NCBI GenBank assembly: GCA_964508715.1
Contig: CAZDUX010000011.1
Location: 1 to 64,000 of the forward strand
From: an uncultured Anaerolineaceae bacterium
GTDB taxonomy: Bacteria; Chloroflexota; Dehalococcoidia; Tepidiformales; Tepidiformaceae
DNA length: 64,000 bases
Direction: 5' to 3'
Shown here: positions 17,778-38,418 of the stretch, piece after piece
Numbering within the stretch: the first letter of the stretch is position 1
Layout: the number at the start of each line of letters is the position of its first letter
Notes under the pieces: generated by a model
What the model saw: only the letters and a program-made list of their open reading frames with translations
Told to the model about the DNA's origin: nothing
Database searches by the model: none
Made by a program: the position numbers and the translations under genes

Positions 17778-19054
17778 TCGCTGCCCGATGCGGACTCCAG
17801 GGAGCGGCGGAGACGCTGGCGGCGATGTTCGAGCGCGCCGGTGCTGGTCTCGCTGCCGGGAGCGCCGGGACGAAGGAGGCCACGCTCGATGAGGCCGAGC
17901 GCGGTCTCGACGAGCATGTACGCTTCTGAGCGGTCATGCGTGCGGTGCTCGGCGATCTTGGCGAGTTCGACGTACGGCAGCACGCGGCGAGAGCGTGGCT
18001 CATTGATGAGGGCGCGCCAGCAGCGGGCAGCGTCGGCATACTGGTGGAGTTTCGTGTAGCAGCGCGCTGCCTTCTCCCAGGCTTCGAGGCGTTCAGCACG
18101 GCCGATGCCCTCATCGATGGCGGATTCGTAATAGCGCGCGGAACTCGCGTAGTCACCTGCATACTCCGCGGCCCGGGCAGCCTGGAGCGGCGAGGCGTCA
18201 CCCTCACAGACAGCGCCGAGGTGGGCGGCGAGGGCAACGAGGCTGAGGACATCCCAGGCGTTGTGGCGAAGGACCGGGAGGATGTGCGTGGGGTCGCTCG
18301 TTCGCTGGAAACGGAAGTACCGCTCGGGGACTTCGGCCGACGGGCAGTCGTCTTCACGTTCAAAGCCAAGCAGCTCAACTTCCATGTGGACGAGGCGGTG
18401 GGAATCGAATGCGCCCTTGAAGAGGCGGCGGTTTGGGTGCAGCAGGTCGAGGTGAGGGAGCTGGCGGAAGAGCGGGCGCTGCCGCGAGAGGATGTAGCGC
18501 GCTTCGAGGAGGGGAAGGTCGAACGACTTGCCGTTGTAGCTGACGAGGGCAGCCGCATGATCGAGATCTTCGGCAAGGCCGCCAAGGAGACCACCTTCGT
18601 AGGCGGGCGACGGGAGGAGGTACTGGCGGAGCTTGAGGAGCGATCCATCGAAACGGGCGACCCCGGCGAGGAAAACCATAGAGCCCGCGCCGCCGAGGCC
18701 CGTCGTCTCGGTGTCGACGTAGAGGAAATCGCGGGGGTGGCATGAGGCGAGGCGCGGATCACGCGTCTGGCCGGCAAGACGAGCAGGGTCGACGGAGATC
18801 GCGCGGTGGAGGGGGATGCGGCCGTGCTCGTGACCCGTTTCGTAGACACTCTCGATGACGTAGCCGGGGCCGTTGGGCGACTGGAACCAGCGGCCGCCGA
18901 GGCCCGAGAGGTCGGTGAGTTCGGTGACGCTTTCGATGCGGGCTGCCGGTGCACGTGCTGGCTGGTGGAGCGCCGCGCGGAGCTTATCGCGGAGAGGCGT
19001 CGGTGCGGGCTGGTCGCCGAACATTTGTGCGAAGGGTGCACGAACCAACGGCAA
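17774..19054 (-). CDS. RNase H-like 3'-5' exonuclease domain protein (YprB/COG3359-like) with C-terminal TPR-like repeats
   Basis: FLYVDTETTGLGGAGSMVFLAGV motif (DxE exonuclease/PolB-exo like); C-terminal helical repeats (YAGDYASSARYYESAI..AARCYTKLHQYADAARCWRAL). Confidence 0.6.
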   Translation of the reverse strand: MPLVRAPFAQMFGDQPAPTPLRDKLRAALHQPARAPAARIESVTELTDLSGLGGRWFQSPNGPGYVIESVYETGHEHGRIPLHRAISVDPARLAGQTRDPRLASCHPRDFLYVDTETTGLGGAGSMVFLAGVARFDGSLLKLRQYLLPSPAYEGGLLGGLAEDLDHAAALVSYNGKSFDLPLLEARYILSRQRPLFRQLPHLDLLHPNRRLFKGAFDSHRLVHMEVELLGFEREDDCPSAEVPERYFRFQRTSDPTHILPVLRHNAWDVLSLVALAAHLGAVCEGDASPLQAARAAEYAGDYASSARYYESAIDEGIGRAERLEAWEKAARCYTKLHQYADAARCWRALINEPRSRRVLPYVELAKIAEHRTHDRSEAYMLVETALGLIERGLLRPGAPGSETSTGALEHRRQRLRRSLESASGSD

Positions 19055-24603: not shown

Positions 24604-26298
24604 TTACTCGGCCACCTGGACACCGATCTGGGCGGTTACGAGGTTGATCTGCTGGTTCGCCTGGGCGCGGGTGTTCTCGGTGGCGATGCGCTCCTTTTCG
24701 GCCTTCTGCTGTTCGACGAACATCGCCTGCTGCTGGGCGGCGATGACGCGGCCCTGCTGAATCTCCATGAGTTCGGGCGGGAGGATGATCTGGCTGATGA
24801 GGACGGAGACGCACTCGCAGTGGTACTTCTCGAGTTCTTCGCGGGCGCGGGCCTGCGCTTTGAGCTGTTCCTCGGCGCGGTCCTGCATGAACGCCATCGC
24901 CTCGGATGACGATGCCTGGTTGCGGAAGGAGGAGTCGATCATCGGGTGGATGACATGATCGATGAGGTTCTCGACGGAGCCGATCTTGGCGACCATGAGC
25001 GGCGCCTGGTCGGGGCGGACGCGGATAACGACCTTGACGCTGACGCGCATCTCGAAGCCATCGCGGCTGGTGACGGCAAGCGGGTTGAAAAGTTGCATGC
25101 TCCGTGGCTGGGATGCGACGTCGGGGCCATCATCGGGGACGTTGATAACGCCCTCGTTGGCCCAGTCGATGGTGAGGTTGGTGGTGGGGACGATGTAGGC
25201 GATGTAGGCCCAGCGGTTAAGGTAGTAGACACCCGGGCCAGCGACCTCGGCGAGGATGCCCCGATAGCCGTCGGGGACGACATACCGCTCGAGGCCTTCC
25301 TTGAGGTGGTATTCGTCGGACATCGGCGGCGGTTCCTTGCCAACGTTTGAGACGAGGACGGCAACCTCTCCTCTCTGGATGACGGCGACCTCGTCGAGCT
25401 TCACATCGAAGAGGAGCGGGTTGATGTAGTACGTACCGGGGCGGAGGAGGTCGTACTGTGGGCCACGCTGGCCACCGTTGCGGAGAAACGCCTCGCTGTC
25501 CTGGAAGTCGCTGTGGCCTTCGACATGGATGGCGACGAGTTCACCTTCGGGGAGGGGTTCGCCATCCTTTGCCGTAACCAGTCCGATCTGGTTGGCGGAC
25601 ACGACCGTGGCGCCGCGAGTCTCGACGGCGAACATGTCGGTGTTGATGCGATAGCGGCCGGGGAGGAGGACTTCAATCTGGGGCCCGCGCTGGCCACCAA
25701 GTTCAAGGAACGCCTGCCCGTCCTGGAAGGCGGTGTGGCCTTCGACCCTGCTTGCGAGAAGGCGGCCGGGCGACATGGGGTCGCCATCGCGCGCACTGAC
25801 GACGCCGACCTGGCCGGGTGGGATGGTGATGGCGGGTTCGAGCCGGATGCGGAACAGGTATGTGTTGATGCGGTACTTGCCGGGGGCAAGGATATCGACC
25901 TGCGGTCCCTTCTGACCGCCGTTGCGGAGAAATGCCTCGCCGTCCTGGAAGGTGTCGTGGCTATCGACGTGGCGGCCGAAGATGCGGCCGGGGTCGAGTG
26001 CCCGGCCATCGATAGATTCGACGATGCCGACAGACTCATCGTCGACCAGGATCATGGCGTCCTTCGAGACCTTGTAGAGAAACGGAGGCAGGAAGTGGAG
26101 GCCGGGAGGGAGGACACGAGCCTGGATACCGATCTCGCCTTGCATGGCGATGACACGGCCCTCGGGCAGCCCTTTGCCGACATAGCGGCGTTCGAGAATG
26201 CCGACCTGTTGGCCGCCAATATTGACGAGCATGCGGCCAGCACTGACCAGGATGAGGAATACTGCCAGGATGACGGCAAGGACGATGAGTGCGGCCAT
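24604..26298 (-). CDS. flotillin-like SPFH/band-7 domain protein, N-terminal TM anchor, three to four internal ~65-aa repeats, ends at in-frame TAA
   Basis: N-terminal TM (AALIVLAVILAVFLILV); repeats with GH..FQDGEAFLRNGGQRGPQ..L.PG.YRIN core; SPFH-like segment (FEMRVSVKVVIRV...); flotillin-type Ala/Glu/Gln-rich coiled coil at C-terminus. Confidence 0.85.
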   Translation of the reverse strand: MAALIVLAVILAVFLILVSAGRMLVNIGGQQVGILERRYVGKGLPEGRVIAMQGEIGIQARVLPPGLHFLPPFLYKVSKDAMILVDDESVGIVESIDGRALDPGRIFGRHVDSHDTFQDGEAFLRNGGQKGPQVDILAPGKYRINTYLFRIRLEPAITIPPGQVGVVSARDGDPMSPGRLLASRVEGHTAFQDGQAFLELGGQRGPQIEVLLPGRYRINTDMFAVETRGATVVSANQIGLVTAKDGEPLPEGELVAIHVEGHSDFQDSEAFLRNGGQRGPQYDLLRPGTYYINPLLFDVKLDEVAVIQRGEVAVLVSNVGKEPPPMSDEYHLKEGLERYVVPDGYRGILAEVAGPGVYYLNRWAYIAYIVPTTNLTIDWANEGVINVPDDGPDVASQPRSMQLFNPLAVTSRDGFEMRVSVKVVIRVRPDQAPLMVAKIGSVENLIDHVIHPMIDSSFRNQASSSEAMAFMQDRAEEQLKAQARAREELEKYHCECVSVLISQIILPPELMEIQQGRVIAAQQQAMFVEQQKAEKERIATENTRAQANQQINLVTAQIGVQVAE

Positions 26299-26532
26299 TG
26301 GGGAGTCTCTTTCATTCTTTCTGGGCTATAGAACCGCCCGCTAAGCCCGGTGGACGCCCTGAGCAGCTTTGCGTCCTCCAACCGATCGGCCTCAATCTAC
26401 GCCGGCGCGTGGGCGGGATCCATATGGGAAATCCTGATTTGCGCGTGGCTCGTGAGGCTGCGCCACAACCCGGGTAACGGCCCCGGTACCACTGCTGCGT
26501 GCATGCCTGCGGCAACGCACCCGGCGGGAAGC

Positions 26533-27006
26533 TCACTTCTGTTCGCGGGATATGGTTTTCTTCTCGGGATGATGGACGAGCAGGACGGGGCGGTCGGCCG
26601 CACGGACGACTCCCTCGGCGACGCTGCCGAGGATGACGCGGCGCCAGCCACTGCGGCCATGAGTGCCGATAACGATGACCCCGGCATCCCAGGCTCCTGC
26701 CGCATCGACGATGGTCTGGGGGACGGAGCCTCCGAGACACTCTATGGCTTCCGTCTCTGCCTCGATCCCGGCGTCTCGCGCGGTTGTAGCGGCGGCGGCC
26801 AGGACCTGGCGGGCGGCGGCAAGCAGGGGCCGTTCGATGGCGGCTTCGTCGGCGCCTTCACCGGTGAGGGCGGCGGCAGGTACATCGACGATAGCCACAA
26901 CGCGAACGGACGCGCCAGGCACATGGTTTGCGAGCCGGATGGCTTCGGCGAGCGCTGCGTCGGATGTCTCGGAACCGTCAACTGCAACGAGAATGCGCTG
27001 GTACAC
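26533..27006 (-). CDS. universal stress protein (UspA family)
   Basis: ILVAVDGSETSDAAL...VVIGTHGRSGWRRVILGSVAEGVVRAADRPVLLV ATP-binding Usp pattern. Confidence 0.85.
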   Translation of the reverse strand: MYQRILVAVDGSETSDAALAEAIRLANHVPGASVRVVAIVDVPAAALTGEGADEAAIERPLLAAARQVLAAAATTARDAGIEAETEAIECLGGSVPQTIVDAAGAWDAGVIVIGTHGRSGWRRVILGSVAEGVVRAADRPVLLVHHPEKKTISREQK

Positions 27007-27085
27007 AAACCGCCTCCGCTATGGTGGAGCGGGACAGCAGCGATGCTGTGTCTCCTTTCGATGATAGCGGCAGAGGTGGGCCAGT

Positions 27086-27860
27086 AGCCAAAGGGTAGCG
27101 GCGCGGGCGAGGCTGGGCCCTCCATTACCGCATGGCGGCGATACGGAACGGTATACTGGCGGCATGGCCATCCGAACCCCACGACCGAAACGGCAGGAGC
27201 GGCAGGCGGCTTCGCGCTACCACGGTATGCGCATGACCGAGAAGGAATACCTGGCGCTGCCGGAGGAGAAGCCGTATCTCGAGTACGTCGACGGAGTCGT
27301 GCTGCAAAAACCCATGCCAAACATCGAACACACGCTGCTGACAGGCCATCTGATCATTGAACTTGGGCTTTACGCCCGGCGCACAGGAGGGCACGTGGGC
27401 CCCGAGGCGCGAACACGGTTCACAGATGGTGCGAACTACCGGCTTCCAGACGTCTCGTACTGGACTTCGCCGGGCAGGCCAGCGAACGATTCGGTGCCGA
27501 CCCTCGCAATCGAGGTGCGATCACCGGGCCAAACGATGGGGGAGCTCCGCGAGAAGTGCCGGTTTTTCCGGCGAAACGGAGTCGAGGTGGCGTGGCTCGC
27601 TGACCCGGAGTCCCGCACCGTCGAGGTCTTCGAGGAGGGACGAGACGCGGAAGCCCTCGCGGCCCCGGCCATCCTCACCTCTCCCGCACTTCCAGGGTTC
27701 GCGCTCGACCTCGCCGGTCTGTTTGGGGTGCTCGATTCCTGACGGTTCATCGTAGCCGTGACGGTCCGTGATCGGCAGGCGCGTCATGCGGCGGCCCGGT
27801 CAGTGGTCCACACGGTGAGCGCTCACTCCTGAGAGGCGGGCAGGGTTCCGGTGGGCCGGT
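27086..27860. repeat. tandem direct repeat, copy 1 (about 775 bp, carries Uma2 gene with its upstream region)
   Basis: Near-identical to 27861..28635; period 775 bp from ORF offsets (27164 vs 27939; 27742 vs 28517). Confidence 0.85.
27164..27742 (+). CDS. Uma2 family endonuclease (DUF820, restriction-endonuclease-like fold), copy 1
   Basis: 192 aa; PD-(D/E)xK-like region NYRLPDVSYWTSP...PTLAIEVRSP characteristic of Uma2/DUF820. Confidence 0.8.
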   Translation: MAIRTPRPKRQERQAASRYHGMRMTEKEYLALPEEKPYLEYVDGVVLQKPMPNIEHTLLTGHLIIELGLYARRTGGHVGPEARTRFTDGANYRLPDVSYWTSPGRPANDSVPTLAIEVRSPGQTMGELREKCRFFRRNGVEVAWLADPESRTVEVFEEGRDAEALAAPAILTSPALPGFALDLAGLFGVLDS

Positions 27861-28635
27861 AGCCAAAGGGTAGCGGTGTGGACGAGGCTGGGTGCTTCAT
27901 TATCGCATGGCGGCGATACGGAACGGTATACTGGCGGCATGGCCATCCGAACCCCACGACCGAAACGGCAGGAGCGGCAGGCGGCTTCGCGCTACCACGG
28001 TATGCGCATGACCGAGAAGGAATACCTGGCGCTGCCGGAGGAGAAGCCGTATCTCGAGTACGTCGACGGAGTCGTGCTGCAAAAACCCATGCCAAACATC
28101 GAACACACGCTGCTGACAGGCCATCTGATCATTGAACTTGGGCTTTACGCCCGGCGCACAGGAGGGCACGTGGGCCCCGAGGCGCGAACACGGTTCACAG
28201 ATGGTGCGAACTACCGGCTTCCAGACGTCTCGTACTGGACTTCGCCGGGCAGGCCAGCGAACGATTCGGTGCCGACCCTCGCAATCGAGGTGCGATCACC
28301 GGGCCAAACGATGGGGGAGCTCCGCGAGAAGTGCCGGTTTTTCCGGCGAAACGGAGTCGAGGTGGCGTGGCTCGCTGACCCGGAGTCTCGCACCGTCGAG
28401 GTCTTCGAGGAGGAACGAGACGCGGAAGCCCTCACGGCCCCGGCCGTCCTCACATCTCCCGCGCTTCCAGGGTTCGCGCTCGACCTCGCCGGCCTGTTTG
28501 GGGTGCTCGATTCCTGACGGTTCCTCGTCGCAGGAAGGTTCCGTGATCGGCAGGCACGTAACGGGGCGGCCCGGTCACCAGTACACGAGCGTGCATGGCC
28601 TGTGGCAAGCGCGATGCCGGCCATGATGCTGGCCG
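27861..28635. repeat. tandem direct repeat, copy 2
   Basis: About 98% identical to copy 1 through the coding part; 3' ends diverge. Confidence 0.85.
27939..28517 (+). CDS. Uma2 family endonuclease, copy 2 (4 aa substitutions relative to copy 1)
   Basis: Start refined to MAIRTPRP within 213-aa ORF; differs at EEGRD>EEERD, LAAPAI>LTAPAV. Confidence 0.8.
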   Translation: MAIRTPRPKRQERQAASRYHGMRMTEKEYLALPEEKPYLEYVDGVVLQKPMPNIEHTLLTGHLIIELGLYARRTGGHVGPEARTRFTDGANYRLPDVSYWTSPGRPANDSVPTLAIEVRSPGQTMGELREKCRFFRRNGVEVAWLADPESRTVEVFEEERDAEALTAPAVLTSPALPGFALDLAGLFGVLDS

Positions 28636-28892
28636 AGGGCACGAAGAAGGTGGGGGCGTTGTTGGAGCCTTCCGTGGCTCTCACCGGGTTGCATCCGGCC
28701 CGCCCACGCCGTGTTTACCAGCAGGGCAAGCATTTGTGCCTGGCGCCCCGGGAGACGGCGGGACTGCCCTTCCCGTGATTTGGTTGTTGGCCGGCGTTTC
28801 GCGATACTGGACGTTCGGGCCCGTTCGCGGGTCCGCGTGGAGGCATGCCCACGGGGCAGGCCGTTCGCACACACCACCCCAGGAGAGCCATC

Positions 28893-29315
28893 GTGGCAAA
28901 GAAGGTCCGTGCAGTGGTGACACTGCAAATCCCGGCCGGGAAAGCGAACCCGGCTCCGCCGATTGGCCCGGCACTCGGCCAGCACGGCGTGAACATCATG
29001 GAGTTCTGCAAGGAGTACAACGCTCGCACGCAGAACCAGGTTGGGCAGATCGTGCCGGCCCAGCTCACCATCTTCGAGGACCGTTCGTTCACGTTCATCC
29101 TCAAGACGCCGCCGGCGACCGATATGCTCCGCAAGGCCGCCGGAATCGACAAGGGCAGCGGAAACGTGCGCCTCAACAAGGTCGGCCGCGTCTCGCAGGA
29201 TGATGTCCGGAAGATCGCCGAAACGAAGATGCCGGACCTCAACGCCAACACCGTCGAGGACGCCATCAAGATCATCGAGGGTACCGCGCGCTCGATGGGC
29301 ATCGAGGTGCAGTAG
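28893..29315 (+). CDS. rplK: 50S ribosomal protein L11
   Basis: GTG start giving [44 protein letters not shown]..., 141 aa. Confidence 0.92.
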
Positions 29316-29317
29316 CG

Positions 29318-30031
29318 ATGCCCAAGCACGGTAAGAAGTACCTGGAAGCGGCAAGCAAAGTCGACAAGTCGAAGCTCTATACGGTTGATGAGGCGATCGG
29401 CCTTGCGCGGGAAGTTGCGCCGGCGAAGTTCGATGAGACCGTGGAGTTGCACATCAAGACGGGGCTGGACCCGCGCCACGCAGAGCAACAGATCCGCGGT
29501 AGCACGGTGTTGCCAAACGGCCTGGGCAAGGTGCTGCGCGTGCTCGTCTTCACCGAAGGCGAAGCCGTGGGAGCGGCGCGCGATGCAGGCGCGGATTTCG
29601 TCGGTAGCGACGACCTGATCAAGCAGATCGAGGGCGGCTGGACCGACTTTGATGTCGCCATCGCAACGCGCGAAATGATGGGCAAGGTCGGCCGCCTGGG
29701 GCGTATCCTCGGCCCGCGCGGGCTCATGCCGAACCCGCGGTCGGGGACGGTCATTGGTGCTGAGGACATCGCCAAGACAGTCGCGGAAGCGAAGCAGGGC
29801 CGCGTCGAATTCCGTCTCGACCGCCTCGCGAACATCCACGTTCCGCTCGGCAAGGTGAGCTTCGAAGCGGAGAAGATCCGCGAGAACATGGCCACCCTGA
29901 TCGAAGCCGTGAACGCGGCGAAGCCGAAGGAAGCGAAGGGCCAGTACATCCGCAGCATGACGCTGACGACGACGATGGGCCCCGGCATTCATCTCGACCT
30001 CAGCCAGGCGCTGGCACTCCGCACCGCCTGA
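29318..30031 (+). CDS. rplA: 50S ribosomal protein L1
   Basis: [61 protein letters not shown], 237 aa. Confidence 0.95.
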
Positions 30032-30051
30032 GTCCCTCACGCACCATCGAA

Positions 30052-30082
30052 AACGGGCCTCCTAATAGGAGGCCCGTTTTTG
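30052..30082 (+). terminator. rho-independent terminator after rplA
   Basis: GGGCCTCCT-AATA-GGAGGCCC stem-loop followed by GTTTTTGTT. Confidence 0.85.
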
Positions 30083-30178
30083 TTGTGCGGCAAATGGCAC
30101 CAAGGGGCGAAGAGGCTGCATGCTACTGCAATGAGTGGCAGTTACCTACAATGGCAATGAAGAAGAGCCTGCTGCCAG

Positions 30179-30715
30179 GTGGTGGCAGAGTCCCGCCGTG
30201 CTACGTGGAGTGGAAGGTTGGCAACGTCGTTCCGGCGCCTGGAAGATAGCGAACTGGATGAGGCGCACGCGATCGTTGCTGCCGCGACCGAGTGGCTGAA
30301 CAACCGGGGAATCGTGCAGTGGACGCGCGTGATGCCGCGCGAGATGTACATGGAGCGCCAGGAGCGGGGCGAGAATTATGGGCTGTTCGAGCCCGGCCTC
30401 TCGGCGGTGATGACGCTCAAGGAGCAGGCACCCGAGTACTGGCGAGACCGGGAATACGAAAAACCGTTCCTCTGGCTCTCAACACTCGCCTCACGGCGTG
30501 ACGTGCCGGGCTCGGGCGGGCGCGCCCTCGAGGCGGCCGTGGACTTCACGGCACGTTCGGGGTTCGCCAGCCTCTACCTCGACTGCGTGGATCGGGACGA
30601 TGCGCTGCCATCGTTCTACCGGCGTGCCGGGTTCGAGCAGCTGGAGCGGCGCGAGGTCTGGCCAGGCTGGCCGATGTGCCTCTTCGTGAAGCGGTTTGAC
30701 GGAGAGCAGGCCTAA
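30179..30715 (+). CDS. GNAT family N-acetyltransferase
   Basis: 178 aa; acetyltransferase fold pattern (VPGSGGRALEAAVDFTARSGFASLYLDCV..FYRRAGF); start uncertain. Confidence 0.65.
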   Translation: MVAESRRATWSGRLATSFRRLEDSELDEAHAIVAAATEWLNNRGIVQWTRVMPREMYMERQERGENYGLFEPGLSAVMTLKEQAPEYWRDREYEKPFLWLSTLASRRDVPGSGGRALEAAVDFTARSGFASLYLDCVDRDDALPSFYRRAGFEQLERREVWPGWPMCLFVKRFDGEQA

Positions 30716-31443
30716 GATCGTGCGGCTGTGCCGGGTCTGAGCCACTCGGCGCCATGGTCCTCCGAGGTGATCCGGCCCTTTCGCATGTGGATGACGCGGT
30801 CGGCGGCGGCGGCGACATTCATATCGTGCGTCACGAGCAGGATGGTGAGCTGGCTCTCCTCGCGGATGCGGCGGAAGAGCTCGATGATGCCGAGGGCGGC
30901 CTCCGGGTCGAGGCTGCCAGTCGGTTCGTCGGCGAGGAGCAGGGTAGGGTTGTTGGCGAGCGCCCGGGCGATGGCAACGCGCTGACGTTCGCCACCGGAG
31001 AGTTCGGGTGGCCGGAGGTTGACGCGTTCGGCGAGGCCGACGCCCTCCAGGAGGCCAAGCGCGCGTTTCTTGCTCTCCTTGTTACTGACGCCGGTACCGA
31101 TCGTGGCGATCTGGACGTTCTGGAGTGCGGTGAGGTTCGGCAGGAGGTTGTGGAGCTGGAAAACGAGGCCGACTTCGAGCCGGCGGTAGCGGTCGATGCT
31201 CGGGAGGCCGGGGAGTGCCTTGCCACTGACGCGAATCTCGCCGGAGGTCGGCTCATCGAGCGCGGCGATGAGGTGGAGAAGCGTGGACTTTCCTGAGCCT
31301 GAGGGCCCGGTGAGGGCGACCCACTCACGCCGGTTGATCGCGAACGACACATCTTCGAGGGCGTGGACCTTGCCGCTCTCGTAGATCTTCGAGACGTGGC
31401 TCACTTCGACGGCCGGTTCCTGGGCTGACTGTTGATCATTCAT
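30712..31443 (-). CDS. ABC transporter ATP-binding protein (MacB/LolD/FtsE-like)
   Basis: Walker A GPSGSGKSTL, signature LSGGERQRVAIARAL, Walker B LLLADEPTGSLD. Confidence 0.88.
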   Translation of the reverse strand: MNDQQSAQEPAVEVSHVSKIYESGKVHALEDVSFAINRREWVALTGPSGSGKSTLLHLIAALDEPTSGEIRVSGKALPGLPSIDRYRRLEVGLVFQLHNLLPNLTALQNVQIATIGTGVSNKESKKRALGLLEGVGLAERVNLRPPELSGGERQRVAIARALANNPTLLLADEPTGSLDPEAALGIIELFRRIREESQLTILLVTHDMNVAAAADRVIHMRKGRITSEDHGAEWLRPGTAARS

Positions 31444-32554
31444 GGCGAATCGCCGTCAGCGGCCGAAGCATCGCTGCCCGCAATGCGGGGTAGAGCGCCC
31501 CGAAGGCGGCCATGCCGAAGGTGATGAGCAGGGCACGAAGGAACACGTCGTTGCTGTACACCGGATTGAAGAGTCCCTCCAGCGAGGGCGCACGCTCGAG
31601 TATCTGGATGAGGATGAACCCCAGCCCAATACCGGCCATGCACCCGGACATGGTAACGATAAACGCCTCGCCCAGGACATCGGCGACGATTCGGACGCGA
31701 GACCAGCCGATGGCCCGGAGGACGCCGAACTCGCGCGTCCGCTCGAAGACGGAGAGGCTCATCATGTTGAGGACGGTGACCGCGCCAATGATGAGGGCGA
31801 GTGCCGAAACCCCGGTGTTCGCCGCGCCGAGCAGTTCGAGGTTGCGGTCGACGTGGCCGAAGTCGGTCTCGGAGCGGACGGTGGCGAGTTGGGGCTCGGC
31901 CTTCTCGATCGCCTTCCGAACGGATTCAATATCGTAGCCCTGGGCGACTTTGACGAAGCCAACAGTAATACTGCTCGGCTTCCGCTGAGTGGCCTGGAGG
32001 TGCCGGAGGGGCACCATGGCGGCAGAGTCGCCGAACACCTCGCCGGTCTGGTAGATACCAACGACGGTGTAGTCATTCTTGTCGAGGTGAACGGTGTCGC
32101 CGACCGTCTTGCCGAGGTCGCGGGCGGCCTGGTAGCCGAGCATCGCCTGGTTATCGGCGGCGTCGTCATACGTCTTGCCGACCACGAGGTGGACGCCAAA
32201 CGGCTCCTGGTCGGCGGACTTCATCCCGATGATGAGAAAGAATGGATGCTGTTCATCGAGCTTGAAGCCGGCGACGAGGACACCGATTGAGCTCTCGACA
32301 CCGGGGATCTTGCGGACGGTATCGAGATCGTTCTCATCGATGTTGCTGTAGAGCACATCAGTAGCATTACGCTGGGCAATTGTAAAGTCGGAGCTGCCTG
32401 CCCGAAGAATCGCGACGGCGCTCTCGCGCAGGCTGTGGGTGAGCACACCCATTGCGACGACAGTCATGATGGTGACAGCGATCGCCATGGCGGTGAGCAC
32501 GGAGCGAAATTTCCGGGTATGGACGTTACGCCAGACCAGCAGCGTGAAACTCAC
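31436..32554 (-). CDS. ABC transporter permease, FtsX/MacB-like (4 TM with periplasmic domain)
   Basis: C-terminal FtsX domain (MSLSVFERTREFGVLRAIGWSR...); start refined to GTG preceded by AAGGGAGAGG RBS. Confidence 0.75.
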   Translation of the reverse strand: MSFTLLVWRNVHTRKFRSVLTAMAIAVTIMTVVAMGVLTHSLRESAVAILRAGSSDFTIAQRNATDVLYSNIDENDLDTVRKIPGVESSIGVLVAGFKLDEQHPFFLIIGMKSADQEPFGVHLVVGKTYDDAADNQAMLGYQAARDLGKTVGDTVHLDKNDYTVVGIYQTGEVFGDSAAMVPLRHLQATQRKPSSITVGFVKVAQGYDIESVRKAIEKAEPQLATVRSETDFGHVDRNLELLGAANTGVSALALIIGAVTVLNMMSLSVFERTREFGVLRAIGWSRVRIVADVLGEAFIVTMSGCMAGIGLGFILIQILERAPSLEGLFNPVYSNDVFLRALLITFGMAAFGALYPALRAAMLRPLTAIRHE

Positions 32555-32744
32555 GGCCTCTCCCTTCAGCGGCCAAGCGGCAGCAGCGACTGTTCGGGCG
32601 TAGCATGATTCGGTGCAGGGCGCGCGGCAAGCCCCGCTGGAGACCCCGATTGGCGTTCGATCGGCCCTCGCCGAGGTTGCGATAAATTCGTCACAATACA
32701 CGGTGGCCGAAACGGCCCTGCGGATTCGCACGGGAGAGACGACG

Positions 32745-33290
32745 ATGACGAGATTTGGAACCAGGCATGTGCTCTTCGGCCTTCTTGCTGCCGCGCTCGG
32801 CGGGACCACCCTGGTGGCGGCCGCATGCGGTGGCGGCGACGACCTGGGTGATATCAAGGCGACAGCGACTGCGGCGGCGAAGAATGCACCATCGCCCACA
32901 GCAACCCCGGATCCGGTGCCTGCTTACCGGCAAGCAGCGGACCAGAAGGCGGGTGAACTGGCGACAGCCGTGAAGAAGATCCAGGACGACATGATTGCGG
33001 CATCGACGACCCAGGCCGACCCGAAATGGCCATCGGTGCTCACGGCCGATGCCGACGCAATCACCCAGAAGGCCAACGAGCTCATCGCACTCAAGGCGCC
33101 GAACGCCGACTACCAGCCAGTCGCCGACCAGATGACGACCGCGGCGACAAAGCTCTCCACCGGTGCAGACCTGATGAAGCAGGCAGTGACGAAGCTCTCG
33201 CAGGATTTCGGCATCCAGGGCGCGGCCGCGCTTGACGAGGGTATGAAGCAGCTCGCTACCGCCCGCGAGACACTGGCGAACAAGAAGTAG
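32745..33290 (+). CDS. hypothetical lipoprotein (helical, Ala/Lys-rich)
   Basis: Signal peptide plus lipobox LVAAACGGGDD; start refined to MTRFGTRHV. Confidence 0.5.
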   Translation: MTRFGTRHVLFGLLAAALGGTTLVAAACGGGDDLGDIKATATAAAKNAPSPTATPDPVPAYRQAADQKAGELATAVKKIQDDMIAASTTQADPKWPSVLTADADAITQKANELIALKAPNADYQPVADQMTTAATKLSTGADLMKQAVTKLSQDFGIQGAAALDEGMKQLATARETLANKK

Positions 33291-33456
33291 CGGAGCGAGC
33301 AGGCGCACGATGAAGTGGCTGTTCTATTCCGTGGTGGCTGCGGCGGCGTTACTCGCGGCCATCATCGCGACCGTGCGCATCCGGCGTGGGGGAACGGGTG
33401 CGCCCACCGGGAGCGTGTGAGCAACTGCCGCTTTCTCCAAGCCCCATCGGAGCGAT

Positions 33457-34404
33457 ATGAGCGTGGGCTTCTTGATACCCGGCCCCGCGAGGTGTAGAAG
33501 CGGGCGCATCATGAACGAGAAGCTGAACTCAGACCATCGCATCTTCGTCAGCTACATCGACAAGTCCCGCGAGTACTACCTCGCGCAGGGCTATGGGAAC
33601 CCTTACCGCTGGGCACACTTCGACGAGGTCCCCTTTGGCAGGTTGGCGAGGCCGCTGAGTGAATCGCGAATCGGCCTCGTGACAACGGCAAGCCTCCCCC
33701 AACCGGAACCCGCACCCGATTCATTCGCCATTGCTCCAGTGGTGTACGCGGCCCCGACGGACCCGGCCCCCACAAGCCTCTATACCGACCACCGGTTCTG
33801 GGATAAAGACGCCACGCACACACACGATATCGACTCGTTTGCGCCGATCAACCGGCTGCGCGAAGCCGAAGCGGCGGGCAAGATCGGCAGTCTGTCGCCG
33901 CGGTTCTATGGCATCCCCACCGTTTATAGCCAGCGCCAGACAATGGAATCGGACTGCCCCGCACTCCTCGGGCTTTGCCGCGAAGATGGGGTGGATGCGG
34001 CGATCCTCGTGGCTCTCTGACCAGTCTGTCACCAGACCGTGAGTCTGGCGGCAAGGCACCTCGAAGAAGCGGGTATTCCGACGGTGGTTGTTGGGTCGGC
34101 CCGCGACATCGTGGAGCAATGCGGAGTTGCCCGGTTCCTGTTCACCGACTTCCCGCTTGGCAATCCGTGCGGCGCCCCTTACGACCCGGCGATGCAGACA
34201 GCGATCGTGGGCATGGCGCTGGAATTGCTGGAGTCGGCACGCATGCCCCGCACCACGGTGCAGACACCGTTTCGCTGGCCAAACGATGACTGGCGGCAGG
34301 ACTTCATGCGCTTCGACCATCTCACGGCAGAGGAACTCCGGGAGATGGGTGAGGGCCGCCGCCGGCGCCAGGCCGAACAACACCCGGTACGCGCAAGCGG
34401 ATAG
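33457..34404 (+). CDS. GrdB/PrdB-family (glycine/betaine/sarcosine/D-proline reductase component B-like) selenoprotein; Sec encoded by in-frame TGA at 34018..34020
   Basis: ORFs 33457..34020 and 34039..34404 are in the same frame separated by TGA; joined translation gives ...DAAILVAL-U-PVCHQTVSLAARHLEEAGIPTVVV, matching the U-x-x-C-H...AGIPT active-site region of PrdB/GrdB; upstream region resembles GrdB (INRLREAEAAGKIGSL..FYGIPTVYS); start may be 33511 (MNEKL). Confidence 0.7.
34032..34048 (+). promoter_or_regulatory. candidate bacterial SECIS hairpin (CCAGAC-CGUGA-GUCUGG) starting 11 nt after the UGA
   Basis: 6-bp stem plus 5-nt loop located at +12..+28 from TGA, the spacing used by bacterial SelB-dependent SECIS elements. 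Confidence 0.4.
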
Positions 34405-34412
34405 CGGCGCCC

Positions 34413-35375
34413 TCACCAGCGGTGGCTGGCGAATGCCCACTCGATGATGTTGATGGCGTCCTGGGCGCGGGTAGAGGTGTTGAGAAGGACGGCATAGATA
34501 CGGTGACCGTCGCGCTTCGCCGAGACAACGAAAGTGCGGCCCGCCTGCTCGGTGTAGCCGGTCTTCACGCCATCGACACCGGGCGTGTAGTTCAGAAGGG
34601 GGTTGAGGTTGTAGAGGTCGATATCACGCGACCCCTTCGCAACGTGCTTTTCGGTGCCCACAATCTGCGCGAAGGTCGCGTTCTGCATTGCGTAGCGCGA
34701 GAGGAGGGCGAGGTCGGCGGCAGTGCTGTAGTGGTCCGGCCCCCCGAGGCCGGTGGGTTCTGTGAAATGCGTATCGCGGAGGCCGATGCGGGCAGCCAGG
34801 TCGTTCATGCGGGCAACGAAGTCGGACTGGCTCCATGACGTTGCCTGCATGAGTGCCTCCGCGGCGTCGTTCCCGGAGACGAGCATCATTCCATAGAGGA
34901 GTTCACGGACAGAGAAGCGGTCACCGGGCTCGAGGCCCATGACGGAGCTGTCCTGCTCCCACTCGCGCTGCAGGTTCGGGTTCACGTCGACGACGCGGTC
35001 GAGATCGCCCCCTTCGATGACGACCATGGCTGTTGCAATCTTGGTGAGGCTCGCGGGGGCCATGCGCTGGTGACCGGCACGGTCGAAGAGGATGGTGCCG
35101 GACGCTTCATCCATGACGATGATCGACTGGGCGCTGAGTTGCGGGACCGGGATATCGAGTGCGGCCGGCGGCTTCGGGTCCGGTTGGAGGCTGCGCTGAG
35201 CGGCTGCGACCGGGGCGCCGGGCGGGTGTCCACCATCGAACGGCGAAGTTGTCGTTGGGGTTGCCGTTGGTTCGAACCACCGGGCGAAGGCGGAGTTGTT
35301 GCCGCTGCTCTTGCCGTTGCAGGACGAGAGCAGAATTGCGAAGGCGATAACGCCGATGAGCGTCCGGCTGCTCAT
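34413..35375 (-). CDS. D-alanyl-D-alanine carboxypeptidase (peptidase S11, PBP5/6-like)
   Basis: SxxK (ASLTKIAT), SGN (LVSGNDAAEAL) motifs; signal/lipobox-like N-terminus MSSRTLIGVIAFAILLSSC; start refined. Confidence 0.8.
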   Translation of the reverse strand: MSSRTLIGVIAFAILLSSCNGKSSGNNSAFARWFEPTATPTTTSPFDGGHPPGAPVAAAQRSLQPDPKPPAALDIPVPQLSAQSIIVMDEASGTILFDRAGHQRMAPASLTKIATAMVVIEGGDLDRVVDVNPNLQREWEQDSSVMGLEPGDRFSVRELLYGMMLVSGNDAAEALMQATSWSQSDFVARMNDLAARIGLRDTHFTEPTGLGGPDHYSTAADLALLSRYAMQNATFAQIVGTEKHVAKGSRDIDLYNLNPLLNYTPGVDGVKTGYTEQAGRTFVVSAKRDGHRIYAVLLNTSTRAQDAINIIEWAFASHRW

Positions 35376-35454
35376 GTGGGAGCAAGAATACCGCGCACGT
35401 GGTTTCGAACCAGCGGGGGTAAGCGACGGGCAAAGAGCGCCCGGTCCGGGTGCT

Positions 35455-35961
35455 TCAGGCTGGCAAACGGCCGATACGGCGGAGGGCAATCTCGGACGCG
35501 GTATTGGGCGCGGGCTCGGCGAGAAGCTCGAGGCGAGCGAGCCACTTCACACTGGTGAAACACTCCCCACCGGGGACGAGGAGCCGCACGGGTGCACCAT
35601 GCGCCTGCGGGATCGGCTCACCGTTGAGGGTGAGCGCGAGAAGTGACTGACGGGCTACGTCGACGGGGAGCGGCAGGCTGAAATCGCCGGCGGAGGCCTG
35701 TACCCAGCGGGCGTCGCCAGCAATGCCGGCACGATCGAGCACCTGGCCCATGCGGACGCCACGCCAGCGCAGGCCCGGAACAGTCCAGCCCTCCAGGCAG
35801 GCGAACTCATCGAAGATCTCGTCCTGCGGCATGGCAGCGAGATCCTCGGCGCCGAGCGAGAGCGGCCGCGAAACGAGGCCGTCGATGACGAGCCGGTAGC
35901 CGGCCGCGGGCTCGGGATAGGGATGGATGGGGAGCGATTCGAGGCGCTTGACTTCGGGCAT
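35455..35961 (-). CDS. molybdopterin-dependent oxidoreductase domain protein (sulfite oxidase/MsrP-like)
   Basis: 168 aa; EFACLEGWTVPGLRWRGV and GAPVRLLVPG..CFTSVKWL match the Mo-cofactor binding fold of the sulfite oxidase family. Confidence 0.65.
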   Translation of the reverse strand: MPEVKRLESLPIHPYPEPAAGYRLVIDGLVSRPLSLGAEDLAAMPQDEIFDEFACLEGWTVPGLRWRGVRMGQVLDRAGIAGDARWVQASAGDFSLPLPVDVARQSLLALTLNGEPIPQAHGAPVRLLVPGGECFTSVKWLARLELLAEPAPNTASEIALRRIGRLPA

Positions 35962-35995
35962 GGCGAACTCCTGCCTTCGAATCTAGCGCGGCCGG

Positions 35996-36373
35996 CTACC
36001 GTTCGCCAGCGGAGATATCGAGGTCCACCGCCACGGGGAGCGCTGTCTGCCCCCAGTTCGTAAGGTCACCGCTGTAGCCGGGCTGGTACTTCGCCACGAG
36101 GAGCCGGCGGGCGAGAGCATCTTCCTCGGTGGCGGGGGCGACAAGACGGGCAGTTCCGTGGAACACCTGCCCGGCAATGCGAACGGTCACGGCGGGGATC
36201 TCCCGGATATTCCTCACCCAGTGGGAGTTGTCGCGCCCGCCGCTGAGCAGGTAGAGGGTTATGCCGGCGAGACCGAACCAGATCTCGATCTCACGCGGCT
36301 GGCCGCTCTTGCGGCCCGTAGTCGTGAGGTAGCAGTAGTCGCTCGTGGCGGCGAGGCTGGAGAGGTCCATCAC
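35996..36373 (-). CDS. deazaflavin-dependent nitroreductase family protein (Ddn-like)
   Basis: YLTTTGRKSGQPREIEIWF..LYLLSGGRDNSHWVRNI matches the Ddn/DUF385 family. Confidence 0.7.
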   Translation of the reverse strand: MMDLSSLAATSDYCYLTTTGRKSGQPREIEIWFGLAGITLYLLSGGRDNSHWVRNIREIPAVTVRIAGQVFHGTARLVAPATEEDALARRLLVAKYQPGYSGDLTNWGQTALPVAVDLDISAGER

Positions 36374-36469
36374 GGTACACTCTACGCGGATTGTGGGCGT
36401 GCCAGTTTGCCGGAGCTTGACCCGGCAGGTCGCCTCGAAGCGCTATCTTTGACACCTTTGGTGGCACGC

Positions 36470-36991
36470 ATGTTGAGAAGCTTCGCGATCCTCGCAGTTG
36501 GCATCCTTGGCGCTGGCGCGTTCCTCGTGCAGGCGTTCGCCCAGGAAGGCAGCACTCCGACCCTGCCAAAGCGCGCCATCGTCATCGGGCTAGCCCACGA
36601 CGTCGCACCGCCAACACCAACCCCCACCGTACCGGCGTATCCGCCGCCTCCGCCGCCAGACCCCGCATATTGCGAACCGTCGGGATTCGGGCCGCCCACC
36701 CCGCCGAACGCGGTAATCGGGCTGCTCAGCATCGGCGGAGAGCCAGCCCCGGCTGGCACGCTCATCACCCTAACGTTCGACGGGAAGCGCGGACCCGCAG
36801 CGTATATCCCTGAAGCCGGTGGATATCGGGTCTTCTACGCCGCAGGCGGACAAGGGCACGAACCTCCATGCATCAACCAGGTCGGTTCGGAGCTCGGGGT
36901 GATGGTGAACGGCCAGGCGGTGCAGTCGGGTGTCCGCGTCGGGGATGAGGCATCGCGGTTGGTCTTGAGGTTCGACGTCGCGCTCCCTTGA
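36470..36991 (+). CDS. secreted hypothetical protein with Pro-rich linker
   Basis: Signal peptide MLRSFAILAVGILGAGAFLVQAFA; PPTPTPTVPAYPPPPPPDP linker; start refined from over-extended ORF. Confidence 0.5.
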   Translation: MLRSFAILAVGILGAGAFLVQAFAQEGSTPTLPKRAIVIGLAHDVAPPTPTPTVPAYPPPPPPDPAYCEPSGFGPPTPPNAVIGLLSIGGEPAPAGTLITLTFDGKRGPAAYIPEAGGYRVFYAAGGQGHEPPCINQVGSELGVMVNGQAVQSGVRVGDEASRLVLRFDVALP

Positions 36992-37064
36992 TTCGATTGG
37001 CAGCCGGGTAGTTGTTGGCCCATGCGCAGCGCGTTACAGTCCCGGCACAGCAGCATCGGGAGGG

Positions 37065-37859
37065 ATGGAAATGACGCAGGTGCAGGATCGGGTGAATGTC
37101 CGCGAGGGCGTGGTTTTCGGGACGGGCGGGGGCAGGGAACTCCGTTGCGACATCTTCGAGCCACCAACCGCCGTTGCGAACGGGATCGGGGTGCTGCTCG
37201 TACACGGCGGTGGCTGGAGTGGCGGCGACCGATCGCAGCTGCGCGGATACGGCATTCTTCTCGGGCGGCGCGGCTACTTCTGTGTCGCGAGTGAGTACCG
37301 GCTGACGGGCGAGGCGCTCTGGCCAGCGCAGATCGAGGACGTGAAGGCGGCGATTCGCTACCTGCGCGCAAATGCGGCCGAGTTCGGGATTGATCCCGGG
37401 AAGCTGGTGATCGAAGGGAACTCGGCGGGCGGCCACCTGTCGCTGGTGGCGGCGGGAACAGCGGACGTGCCAGGGTTCGAAGGCAGCGGCGGGAATGCGG
37501 GGGTGAGCACGGAGGTTGCTGCAGCGATCGCCTTCTACCCGCCGACCGGGCTCGAACGGCGGAGCTGGGGCGGGCTCCCGAGTCTCTTTGGCCCGGGCGC
37601 ATCGCAGGAGACACTCAAGACGGCGAGCCCGCTGACGTACGCAACGAAGGGATATCCTCCCACGCTGCTCATCCAGGGGAACGCCGACGACGTGGTTCCC
37701 GCCCGGGAGGCGACGGCGATGTACGACGCGCTCCACGCGGCGGGTGTGCCGGTGGAGATGCACATGTACGCGAACCAGCCGCACGCTTTCGATGCCGACC
37801 CAAAGCTCGGGCGGCAGTGTGCAGAGATCATGGCCTCGTTCATCGAGCGCATGCTCTGA
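37065..37859 (+). CDS. alpha/beta hydrolase (esterase/lipase, fold-3 type)
   Basis: HGGGW oxyanion motif, GNSAGG nucleophile elbow, C-terminal His region. Confidence 0.82.
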   Translation: MEMTQVQDRVNVREGVVFGTGGGRELRCDIFEPPTAVANGIGVLLVHGGGWSGGDRSQLRGYGILLGRRGYFCVASEYRLTGEALWPAQIEDVKAAIRYLRANAAEFGIDPGKLVIEGNSAGGHLSLVAAGTADVPGFEGSGGNAGVSTEVAAAIAFYPPTGLERRSWGGLPSLFGPGASQETLKTASPLTYATKGYPPTLLIQGNADDVVPAREATAMYDALHAAGVPVEMHMYANQPHAFDADPKLGRQCAEIMASFIERML

Positions 37860-37893
37860 GCTGATTCGCCCGGGCCGGCTCACGGGGGAGGAG

Positions 37894-38418
37894 ATGGTAT
37901 TCGAGAGCACGCTCCGGGTGGAAGAGGACGGCGATGGCTACTGGCGCCTTACCGAGGACCTGGTGTACCAGGGGCGGACGGACCGGTTCCTCGTTCCAGC
38001 AGGATTCCGTACCGATTTCGCGAGTGTGCCCCGGCTCTTCACCTGGCTCGTCCCCACGTCCGGGGAGTACACGAAGGCGGCAGTGCTCCACGACTGGCTG
38101 CTCGAGGAATCGGGCATCAGCCGGCACGATGCAGACGGTATCTTCCGGCGGACGATGCGGGAGCTCGGGGTATCGGACCTGCGGCGGTACGTGATGTGGG
38201 GCGCTGTCCGAATCGCAGGGCGGCTCAGGGATTCCAGCATGCCCGAGACACTGCTGATCGTGCTTCTTGCGATATTCGTCGTGCCCGTGGCGCTGCCGGG
38301 CGCGCTCTTTGTCCTAGTCGTCCTCACGCTCCTTTGGGCGGTCGAACTGGGGCTCTGGGGAGCGTTGCGGTTGCTTGGCAAGGAGACGACGAAGCCGCGC
38401 CACTTCTGGTGGAACTGA
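37894..38418 (+). CDS. DUF1353-like protein with C-terminal 2-TM region
   Basis: LVPAGFRTDFASVPRLFTWLVP...AAVLHDWL pattern typical of DUF1353; RBS GGGGGAGGAG before ATG. Confidence 0.6.
   Translation: MVFESTLRVEEDGDGYWRLTEDLVYQGRTDRFLVPAGFRTDFASVPRLFTWLVPTSGEYTKAAVLHDWLLEESGISRHDADGIFRRTMRELGVSDLRRYVMWGAVRIAGRLRDSSMPETLLIVLLAIFVVPVALPGALFVLVVLTLLWAVELGLWGALRLLGKETTKPRHFWWN

What the first reader, a model, noticed from the sequence alone, without database searches (positions are those of the whole stretch)
27086..28635. Exact ~775-bp tandem duplication carrying an Uma2-family endonuclease gene and its promoter region
Two head-to-tail copies (period 775 bp from ORF offsets) are ~98% identical across the gene. 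Only four amino-acid differences separate the two 192-aa Uma2 (DUF820, PD-(D/E)xK-like) proteins. Identity decays over the last ~100 bp of each unit. There are no transposase genes or terminal inverted repeats. The array sits immediately upstream of the rplK-rplA operon, which here lacks its usual secE-nusG neighbours. This suggests a recent rearrangement or insertion at the site. Uma2 proteins have been proposed as restriction-endonuclease-like enzymes of unknown role, and the tandem amplification could reflect gene-dosage selection.
Basis: seen in the sequence. Interest (0 to 1): 0.55.

Follow-up and report, generated by a model that had tools for sequence, protein, structure and literature searches.

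The report
Old Uma2 gene pair, centre homogenised
Two neighbouring copies of a nuclease-like gene of unknown role look like a fresh duplication, but relatives show an old, conserved gene pair whose distinct middle section has here been overwritten by its neighbour's sequence (or merged by the assembler); this is an ordinary kind of locus.

Summary
The repeat is real. Two head-to-tail units with a 775-bp period each carry a 192-aa Uma2 (PF05685) gene and its own -10 box. It is not exact. A 484-bp perfectly identical core (27129-27612 = 27904-28387) sits between edges that differ at 26 sites. The proteins differ at three residues, not four.

It is not a recent duplication. A metagenome contig about 97% identical to the window (WBZR01003742.1) has the same pair, with the same spacing, upstream of rplK. 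There, residues 54-110 of copy B are only 41% identical to copy A. Window copy 2 keeps B-type variants on both flanks and carries an A-type centre. That is a gene-conversion patch of 187-484 bp, or an assembler collapsing an equal-length A/B bubble; I could not separate these two.

Eleven tandem Uma2 pairs from Chloroflexota contigs share this architecture: near-identical ends and a divergent central cassette, with cassette types older than the lineages compared. Dispersed paralogues on one contig are not homogenised.

Tandem Uma2 genes were already described in 2005 and 2009, and their function remains unknown. There is no transposase and no terminal inverted repeat. The pair lies at the rplK-side end of about 28.7 kb that separates rplK from its ancestral neighbour in this lineage. 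Interest is low to moderate.

The parts
27075..27802 (+). Repeat unit 1. It is truncated at its 5' end: the first ~47 bp of the ancestral 775-bp unit are missing.
   Evidence: Offset-775 comparison and the repeat finder family D1. Four-way alignment with the WBZR contig shows the unit extends further left there.
27803..28577 (+). Repeat unit 2, the complete 775-bp unit.
   Evidence: Window 27811-27849 is homologous to the sequence upstream of copy A in L008.
27164..27742 (+). Uma2 copy 1 (192 aa, A-type cassette).
   Evidence: ORF list. Pfam PF05685 at 97.7 bits. 98% identical to P0001. AF2 model with pLDDT 86.7 matches DUF820 structures 3OT2 and 1WDJ at TM 0.72-0.81.
27939..28517 (+). Uma2 copy 2 (192 aa). 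It sits in the B slot by its flanks but carries an A-type cassette.
   Evidence: Pfam at 99 bits. Ancestry string along the copy reads B...A...B.
27152..27157 (+). TATACT -10-like box ending 6 nt before the ATG of copy 1. No Shine-Dalgarno sequence, so a leaderless transcript is inferred.
   Evidence: All 18 Uma2 genes in 9 tandem pairs have TAnnnT at this position. The consensus promoter scan found no full -35/-10 match.
27927..27932 (+). TATACT -10-like box of copy 2.
27129..27612 (+). Copy-1 side of the 484-bp perfectly identical core (the donor, if conversion is real).
   Evidence: No differences between 27128 and 27613.
27904..28387 (+). Copy-2 side of the identical core. This is the maximum extent of the conversion tract.
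28098..28284 (+). Minimum conversion tract: the central cassette region. Copy 2 is A-type at nearly all of the ~95 sites that distinguish A from B in the relative.
   Evidence: sites 27323-27509 in copy-1 coordinates, plus 775. Alignment.
27075..27079 (.). Junction of a 1155-bp deletion relative to WBZR/WBZO contigs. The deletion removed a cupin gene, a MarR gene and the 5' end of unit 1. Microhomology is 4-5 nt.
   Evidence: L008 123-861 aligns with window 26341-27079 and L008 2017-13239 with 27075-38297. Junction sequences. A third contig, L092, also has cupin-MarR-Uma2A.
28884..30031 (+). rplK-rplA, the downstream context (not part of the repeat).
   Evidence: Pfam Ribosomal_L11_N/L11 and Ribosomal_L1.
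26533..27006 (-). Universal stress protein gene, the upstream context.
   Evidence: Pfam Usp at 111 bits.

Best explanation
This is an old, conserved tandem pair of Uma2-family genes (PD-(D/E)xK fold, 'PD-EXR-K' active-site variant). Each gene is its own promoter-proximal, probably leaderless, transcription unit. In relatives the two genes have ends kept nearly identical by local gene conversion, and two distinct central cassettes, A and B (residues ~54-110: helix 1 plus the first strands of the nuclease core). In the window's lineage a non-crossover conversion patch of 187-484 bp copied the A cassette of copy 1 over the B cassette of copy 2. That produced an A-A pair with a 484-bp identical core inside older, diverged flanks.

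Shown: the repeat, the family and fold, the orthology of the flanks, the A/B architecture in relatives, and the concerted evolution of the ends. Inferred: that the A-A state is biological rather than an assembly product, that transcription is leaderless, and any nuclease activity. What the proteins do is unknown. The most likely role, by family precedent only, is a selfish or defence-type DNA endonuclease.
For: 1. WBZR01003742.1 (L008) is 97.3% identical to window 27075-38297. It has Uma2-A and Uma2-B at the same 775-bp spacing upstream of rplK.
2. A and B there are 98-100% identical in residues 1-53, 93% in residues 111-192, and 41% in residues 54-110.
3. Of the 26 sites that differ between the window copies, 16 show copy 1 = GCA-A and copy 2 = GCA-B. 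Along copy 2 the ancestry reads B (27877-27897), then A (28098-28284, nearly all of ~95 diagnostic sites), then B (from 28434 on).
4. L009, a more distant contig, has an A-B pair with the same mosaic. B cassettes are 88% identical across loci and A cassettes 75%, against 41-45% for A versus B within a locus.
5. Within a locus, dS of the ends is 0.055-0.2, against 0.4-1.4 between L008 and L009. Orthologous cassette dN/dS is 0.07-0.16.
6. Eleven tandem pairs from other Chloroflexota contigs show the same identical-ends, divergent-centre pattern. Dispersed paralogues on one 1.64-Mb contig are not homogenised.
7. Every copy has a TAnnnT box ending 6 nt before the ATG.
8. Pfam, PDB sequence and fold matches to DUF820 structures. 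D96, E117, R119 and K131 are invariant, matching the variant described in PMC551604.
Against: The identical core spans exactly the region where an assembler would merge the two copies if the real genome were A-B, so the pattern alone cannot prove a biological conversion. No reads were available. The independent Logan contigs of the same strain stop at 28984 and 29075, inside rplK, and do not cover the repeat. The consensus sigma-70 scan found no full promoter. The L009 pair has a 36-bp spacer rather than 196 bp, so the two pairs may not descend from one single duplication event.
Confidence: 0.62

Rival explanations
1. Assembly artefact. The real genome has an A-B pair like its relative. The A and B cassettes lie between identical shared segments and have equal length, so they form a bubble in the assembly graph. 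A topology-based bulge remover collapsed the bubble onto the A path, and repeat resolution then wrote the A path twice.
For: The identical core (27129-27612) begins and ends exactly at the first flanking differences. A and B cassettes have zero net length difference. The closest relative is A-B. Short-read contigs of this locus break at the shared segment: L092 ends 36 nt into copy 2. How bulge removers behave is from my own knowledge of assemblers and was not tested here.
Against: The source contig is 113 kb and the assembler resolved a 484-bp exact repeat, which suggests linking information was available. In the protein collection no B-type sequence clusters with P0005 apart from the WBZR one. 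Real conversion predicts exactly the same sequence pattern, and homogenised ends in all other pairs show that conversion is active in these arrays.
Confidence: 0.28
2. One reading: a recent tandem duplication of a single Uma2 gene with its promoter, kept for gene dosage. The edges are diverging because they are non-coding.
For: 98.8% nucleotide identity across the CDS and a perfectly identical 484-bp stretch. Both copies are intact and have promoter-like boxes.
Against: 16 of the 26 inter-copy differences are shared with the A/B pair of an independent contig, so they predate the split. Copy 2's flanks on both sides are B-type. The same two-gene locus with a divergent second gene exists in WBZR and, in another context, in L009. 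Divergence of 15-20% in the unit edges is much more than the 2.7% between the two genomes.
Confidence: 0.05
3. A mobile element (IS or other transposon), or a toxin-antitoxin module that inserted next to rplK.
For: Uma2 genes have been called selfish elements and possible solo toxins (PMC551604, PMC2701414). The pair sits at a synteny breakpoint.
Against: There is no transposase or integrase domain in the neighbouring ORFs, no terminal inverted repeats, no tRNA gene and no GC anomaly. No small antitoxin-like partner gene is present, and the unit holds only the Uma2 ORF.
Confidence: 0.03

Closest known systems
Uma2 / COG4636 / DUF820 (PF05685) putative PD-(D/E)xK nucleases, including their known tandem arrays (Feder & Bujnicki 2005, PMC551604; Makarova et al. 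2009, PMC2701414)
   Same: Same family by Pfam score, PDB sequence match and fold. Same 'PD-EXR-K' residue set. [quoted passage not shown] No conserved partner genes.
   Different: The host is a Tepidiformaceae-like Chloroflexota, not a cyanobacterium. The papers I searched (text search only) do not mention the constant-ends, variable-cassette mosaic or gene conversion; 'gene conversion' has 0 occurrences in PMC551604.
Concerted evolution of neighbouring bacterial paralogues by gene conversion (a general phenomenon; comparison from my own knowledge)
   Same: Within-locus identity of the ends far exceeds between-lineage identity, including at synonymous sites. A short patch is bounded on both sides by paralogue-specific variants.
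   Different: Homogenisation normally stops short of a central cassette that stays divergent and is itself under purifying selection. The window is the exception, where the cassette was overwritten.
PADLOC candidate defence system PDC-S03
   Same: Both A- and B-type proteins match PDC-S03 models (E = 6e-16 and 1e-15).
   Different: PDC-S03 is an untested candidate, and no paper in the library mentions it. The window neighbourhood has no recognisable defence genes.
Insertion sequences / composite transposons
   Same: A repeated DNA segment carrying a nuclease-superfamily gene.
   Different: The repeats are direct and adjacent, with no terminal inverted repeats and no transposase family hit.

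Membership tests
Uma2 family (Pfam PF05685, DUF820, COG4636) | Whole-protein score above the Pfam gathering threshold | tested here: met
   97.7 and 99.0 bits against a cut-off of 27; profile covered 3-171 of 172.
Uma2 family (Pfam PF05685, DUF820, COG4636) | Restriction-endonuclease-like fold as in the solved DUF820 structures | tested here: met
   AF2 model with pLDDT 86.7. Foldseek hits to 3OT2, 1WDJ, 6OKH and 9Y1L with E = 1e-14 to 1e-10; TM normalised by target length 0.73-0.81, by query length 0.58-0.76. phmmer hit to 3OT2 at E = 7e-15.
Uma2 family (Pfam PF05685, DUF820, COG4636) | Active-site residues of the relocated-lysine variant (PD ... E-x-R/K ... K) | tested here: met
   P95-D96, E117, R119 and K131 are invariant in 21 sequences covering both cassette types. 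The variant is described in PMC551604.
Uma2 family (Pfam PF05685, DUF820, COG4636) | Nuclease activity | not testable with these tools
   None of the papers read here reports an activity; all four PDB entries are labelled uncharacterised or putative.
   Copy 2's flanks match GCA copy B and copy 1's match GCA copy A at 16 of 26 differing sites.
Gene-conversion patch between paralogues | A donor-type segment bounded on both sides by recipient-type variants, with no change in copy number or spacing | tested here: met
   B-A-B ancestry along copy 2, and a 775-bp spacing identical to the relative. This holds only if the assembly is correct.
Gene-conversion patch between paralogues | The state is present in the DNA molecule (read support) | not testable with these tools
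   No reads were available. Logan contigs do not cover 27075-28577.
Insertion sequence / transposon | Transposase gene and terminal inverted repeats | tested here: not met
   No inverted repeat flanks the unit. The only ORF with a family match in the unit is Uma2.
Type II toxin-antitoxin module | An adjacent small antitoxin gene in an operon with the toxin | tested here: not met
   Each unit holds one supported ORF preceded by its own -10 box. Neighbours differ between loci.
PADLOC PDC-S03 (candidate defence) | HMM match | tested here: met
   E = 6.2e-16. This is a match to a candidate model only; a defence function is untested anywhere I could find.

The most novel reading that the evidence does not exclude
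Tandem Uma2 pairs in Chloroflexota may be a two-cassette system. The constant N- and C-terminal parts (kept identical by local gene conversion) would provide a common scaffold or dimer interface. The central cassette (helix 1 plus strands 1-2 of the nuclease core, carrying H56, E81 and D96) would come in old, selectively maintained types that set substrate specificity. The homogenised ends would then also act as recombination handles, letting cassettes be swapped, reordered or overwritten between strains. L016 and L017 carry the same cassette in different positions, and the window would be an A-A outcome. The nuclease itself might stimulate these conversions.
Probability: 0.15. Interest if true: 0.6.

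Novelty: new member of a known kind. Interest (0 to 1): 0.3.

Why it matters
For the window itself it matters little: this is one more tandem Uma2 locus, a family whose tandem arrays have been known since 2005 and whose function is still unknown.

Two things are worth keeping. First, there is a caution for assemblies. Paralogue pairs with identical ends and equal-length divergent centres are exactly the structure an assembler can flatten, so "near-identical recent duplicates" in MAGs need read-level checks.

Second, all eleven tandem pairs examined share the same mosaic of homogenised ends and an old, purified central cassette. This gives a concrete handle on an uncharacterised but very abundant nuclease-like family. 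It says which ~55 residues carry the functional difference between paralogues. It also suggests testing A/B pairs together, as possible heterodimers, rather than as single proteins.

Tried and rejected
- **Tandem Repeats Finder.** It found nothing because its longest period is 500. I used an offset comparison and the repeat finder instead.
- **Exact-protein look-ups.** Look-ups of both Uma2 copies, Usp and L11 found nothing. The source contig (113 kb, NCBI) is in the protein collection but not in the contig index.
- **Genome-contig scan.** It returned only distant (43-55% identical) relatives.
- **Search for B-cassette fragments from the window's own samples.** A search with an 83-aa B-cassette query returned 3 candidates and did not even recover P0005. 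The word index is too coarse for short queries, so this test of the artefact hypothesis was uninformative.
- **Logan contigs of the same strain** stop at 28984 and 29075 and do not reach the repeat.
- **Rfam and ARAGORN.** No RNA family or tRNA near the locus.
- **Consensus promoter scan.** No sigma-70 match. The -10 box was found only by comparing loci.
- **Repeats flanking the ~28.7-kb block.** I looked for repeats between its two ends (1-600 against 28400-28950) and found only chance 7-9-mers.
- **Rejected readings.** IS element, TA module and foreign genomic island: there is no integrase, the block contains mfd, and GC is flat at 0.63-0.68.
- **Literature.** 'PDC-S03' gave 0 papers. Searches for Uma2, DUF820 and COG4636 gave no functional study.

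Full report

Yes, with corrections. Shifting the sequence by 775 bp aligns 27075-27802 with 27850-28577. Each unit contains a 192-aa ORF, at 27164-27742 and 27939-28517. Both match Pfam Uma2 (PF05685) at 97.7 and 99.0 bits against a cut-off of 27.

The duplication is not exact. The units differ at 26 of 728 aligned positions, and the differences are not spread evenly. Eight lie in 27083-27128, none in the 484 bp from 27129 to 27612, and the rest lie 3' of 27612, becoming dense after the stop codon. The CDSs differ at 7 nt and the proteins at three residues (G158E, A165T, I169V), not four.

No other Uma2 paralogue is present in the 64 kb. There are no flanking inverted repeats, no tRNA genes, and no Rfam family near the locus.

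**2. What the relatives show**

The window's two proteins are the closest relatives of P0001 (98% identical). P0001 lies on a 13-kb metagenome contig, WBZR01003742.1 (locus L008), together with a second Uma2 protein, P0005, that is only 79% identical.

L008 is 97.3% identical to window 27075-38297. Its gene order is Usp - cupin - MarR - Uma2-A - Uma2-B - rplK - rplA. The two Uma2 starts are exactly 775 bp apart.

The A and B proteins of L008 compare as follows:

| Residues | A vs B identity |
|---|---|
| 1-53 | 98-100% |
| 54-110 | 41% |
| 111-192 | 93% |

A four-way DNA alignment and a site-by-site tally show three things.
- Of the 26 sites that differ between the window copies, 16 have copy 1 = GCA-A and copy 2 = GCA-B. 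These differences therefore predate the split of the two genomes.
- At the sites that distinguish A from B in L008, window copy 2 is B-type at 27877-27897. It is A-type at nearly all of the ~95 diagnostic sites between 28098 and 28284, and B-type again from 28434 onward.
- In L008 the units abut as complete 775-bp repeats. The window's copy 1 lacks the first ~47 bp because the window has a 1155-bp deletion (cupin + MarR) with its junction at 27075-27079. A third contig (L092, WBZO01041870.1) also has cupin-MarR-Uma2A, and it breaks 36 nt into the second copy.

So the window's copy 2 is the orthologue of a B-type gene whose centre is now A-type. That is a patch of at least 187 bp and at most 484 bp.

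**3. The same architecture elsewhere**

*A more distant A-B pair.* A JGI contig (L009) carries an A-B pair in a different neighbourhood, with a 36-bp spacer. Its ends are 95-98% identical within the locus but only 80-92% identical to the window or L008. Its B cassette is 88% identical to the L008 B cassette, and its A cassette is 75% identical to the window's.

*Synonymous sites.* Third-position identity of the C-terminal part is 85-95% within a locus and 45-52% between L008 and L009. Nei-Gojobori dS of the ends is 0.055-0.2 within loci, against 0.4-1.4 between them. Orthologous cassettes have dN/dS of 0.14-0.16 (A) and 0.07 (B). Both cassette types are therefore functional and old, while the ends evolve in concert.

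*Wider sample.* A metagenome scan added 80 loci. Every pair examined shows near-identical ends and a divergent centre. Related samples carry the same cassette in different positions (L016 against L017).

*Dispersed paralogues.* On one 1.64-Mb contig, dispersed paralogues are not homogenised with the pair: 42-72% identity in the ends, against 91-96% within the pair. Homogenisation is therefore a local process between neighbours, and gene conversion fits that.

**4. Anatomy**

*Promoter.* Every Uma2 gene in nine pairs has a TAnnnT hexamer ending 6 nt before its ATG, and none has a Shine-Dalgarno sequence. In the window these boxes are TATACT at 27152-27157 and 27927-27932. I infer that each gene is a leaderless transcription unit. 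The generic -35/-10 scan found nothing, so this rests on comparison between loci only.

*Structure.* An AlphaFold2 model (pLDDT 86.7) places the variable cassette on helix 54-74, strands 77-100 and the following loop. That is the first half of the PD-(D/E)xK core. The model matches the DUF820 crystal structures 3OT2, 1WDJ, 6OKH and 9Y1L, with TM 0.73-0.81 when normalised by target length.

*Conserved residues.* H56, E81 and D96 lie inside the cassette. E117, R119, S120, Q123 and K131 lie in the constant part. All are invariant across both cassette types. This is the 'PD-EXR-K' variant described by Feder and Bujnicki (PMC551604).

**5. Genomic setting**

The L1 protein is 85-88% identical to those of Tepidiforma species, so the organism is a Tepidiformaceae-like member of the Dehalococcoidia.

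In Tepidiforma flava, in two other Tepidiforma-like assemblies and in a closer relative (L096, L1 93% identical), the order is rpmG-secE-nusG, then two ABC permeases and an SBP gene on the other strand, then rplK-rplA. The SBP gene start and rplK are 276-290 bp apart. Two conclusions follow.
- secE-nusG were already about 4 kb away from rplK in this family.
- rplJ-rplL do not follow rplA in any of these loci.

In the window, the minus strand of positions 2-154 encodes the N-terminus of the orthologous SBP, 76% identical to that of L096. About 28.7 kb therefore now separates it from rplK. This block includes mfd, a CDF transporter, CoA-transferases, ABC transporters and a glycosyltransferase. 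It has no integrase and no GC anomaly. It looks like a chromosomal rearrangement rather than a foreign island.

The Uma2 pair lies at the rplK-side end of the block. Similarity to relatives resumes at about 28800, in the rplK leader. But the rearrangement is shared with the WBZR lineage, and the data do not show that the Uma2 genes caused it.

**6. How the window's state arose**

*Best explanation: conversion.* A non-crossover gene conversion copied the A cassette over the B cassette. Conversion is demonstrably active in these arrays (section 3), and the B-A-B ancestry with unchanged spacing is its signature.

*Main rival: assembly artefact.* The A and B cassettes have equal length and lie between identical shared segments. 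An assembly graph would see them as a bubble. Collapsing it and then resolving the repeat would yield exactly the observed 484-bp identical core. This part is my own reasoning about assemblers.

*Why this stays open.* I could not get reads. The Logan contigs of the same strain end inside rplK. A search for B-cassette fragments was uninformative.

I put the four readings at about 0.62 (conversion), 0.28 (artefact), 0.05 (fresh duplication kept for dosage) and 0.03 (mobile element or TA module). The fresh-duplication reading is contradicted.

**7. Comparison with what is known**

Tandem COG4636/Uma2 genes were listed by Feder and Bujnicki in 2005. They proposed that these genes are selfish nucleases that stimulate recombination. 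[quoted passage not shown]

None of the papers read or searched here reports a function. PADLOC lists the family only as candidate PDC-S03.

The locus is therefore a new member of a known kind. The constant-ends, variable-cassette mosaic is not mentioned in the papers I could search, and it is the one observation that might repay follow-up.

**8. Verdict**

The locus is an old Uma2 pair whose centre has been homogenised, by conversion or by the assembler. It is not a recent amplification. Interest is 0.3.

Noticed in passing
window 1-28883 (SBP gene start at <=154 on the minus strand; rplK at 28884): About 28.7 kb separates the orthologue of the peptide-transporter SBP gene from rplK. In Tepidiforma flava and in contig L096 the two are 276-290 bp apart. 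The block contains mfd and ordinary metabolic and transport genes, with no integrase and a flat GC profile, so it looks like a chromosomal rearrangement with one breakpoint between 28578 and about 28800.
   Followed up: partly
window 27075-27079; L008 862-2016: A 1155-bp deletion relative to two related contigs (WBZR, WBZO) removes a cupin gene, a MarR gene and the first ~47 bp of repeat unit 1. The junction has 4-5 nt of microhomology (GGTGG/GGCGG).
   Followed up: yes
window ~28800-28883: The rplK 5' leader is conserved with L096 and Tepidiforma flava. It has a GATACT/CACAAT -10-like box about 75 nt upstream and a 'GTGGAGGC...hairpin...GCCGYTYGSACAC' element just before the Shine-Dalgarno sequence. 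This may be the L1-binding autoregulatory site. No Rfam family matched.
   Followed up: partly
window 59193-59303 (+): SAM riboswitch (RF00162, 79.9 bits) upstream of a 419-aa ORF at 59489-60748.
   Followed up: no
window 25500-25992 (inside the SPFH/Band-7 gene 24604-26298, minus strand): Three direct repeats with a 222-bp period (72-81% identical), that is, a 74-aa unit repeated in the N-terminal half of a 564-aa SPFH-domain protein.
   Followed up: no
window 30045-30085 and 30179-30715: A 20-nt-arm hairpin lies directly after rplA and is a likely terminator. An extra ORF of 165-178 aa with no Pfam or NCBIfam match lies between rplA and the ABC ATPase gene. This ORF is absent from L096, where the gap is 70 bp.
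   Followed up: partly
L016 33-1229 and L017 5001-6203 (related JGI metagenome samples): The same Uma2 cassette (96% identical) is the second gene of the pair in L016 and the first gene in L017, each time with a different partner cassette. The ends are 90-99% identical across all four genes. This suggests cassette reshuffling between strains.
   Followed up: partly
L005 and L006 (Logan contigs of SRR22956013 and SRR22956010): Independent assemblies 100% identical to the window end at window 28984 and 29075, inside rplK. That is about 400-500 bp downstream of the repeat, not at its edge. The reason for the breaks is unknown; strain variation is possible.
   Followed up: no
window 17774-19054 (-): A 426-aa protein with an RNase_H_2 (PF13482) domain. 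It is the only nuclease-superfamily gene besides Uma2 in the upstream 15 kb.
   Followed up: no
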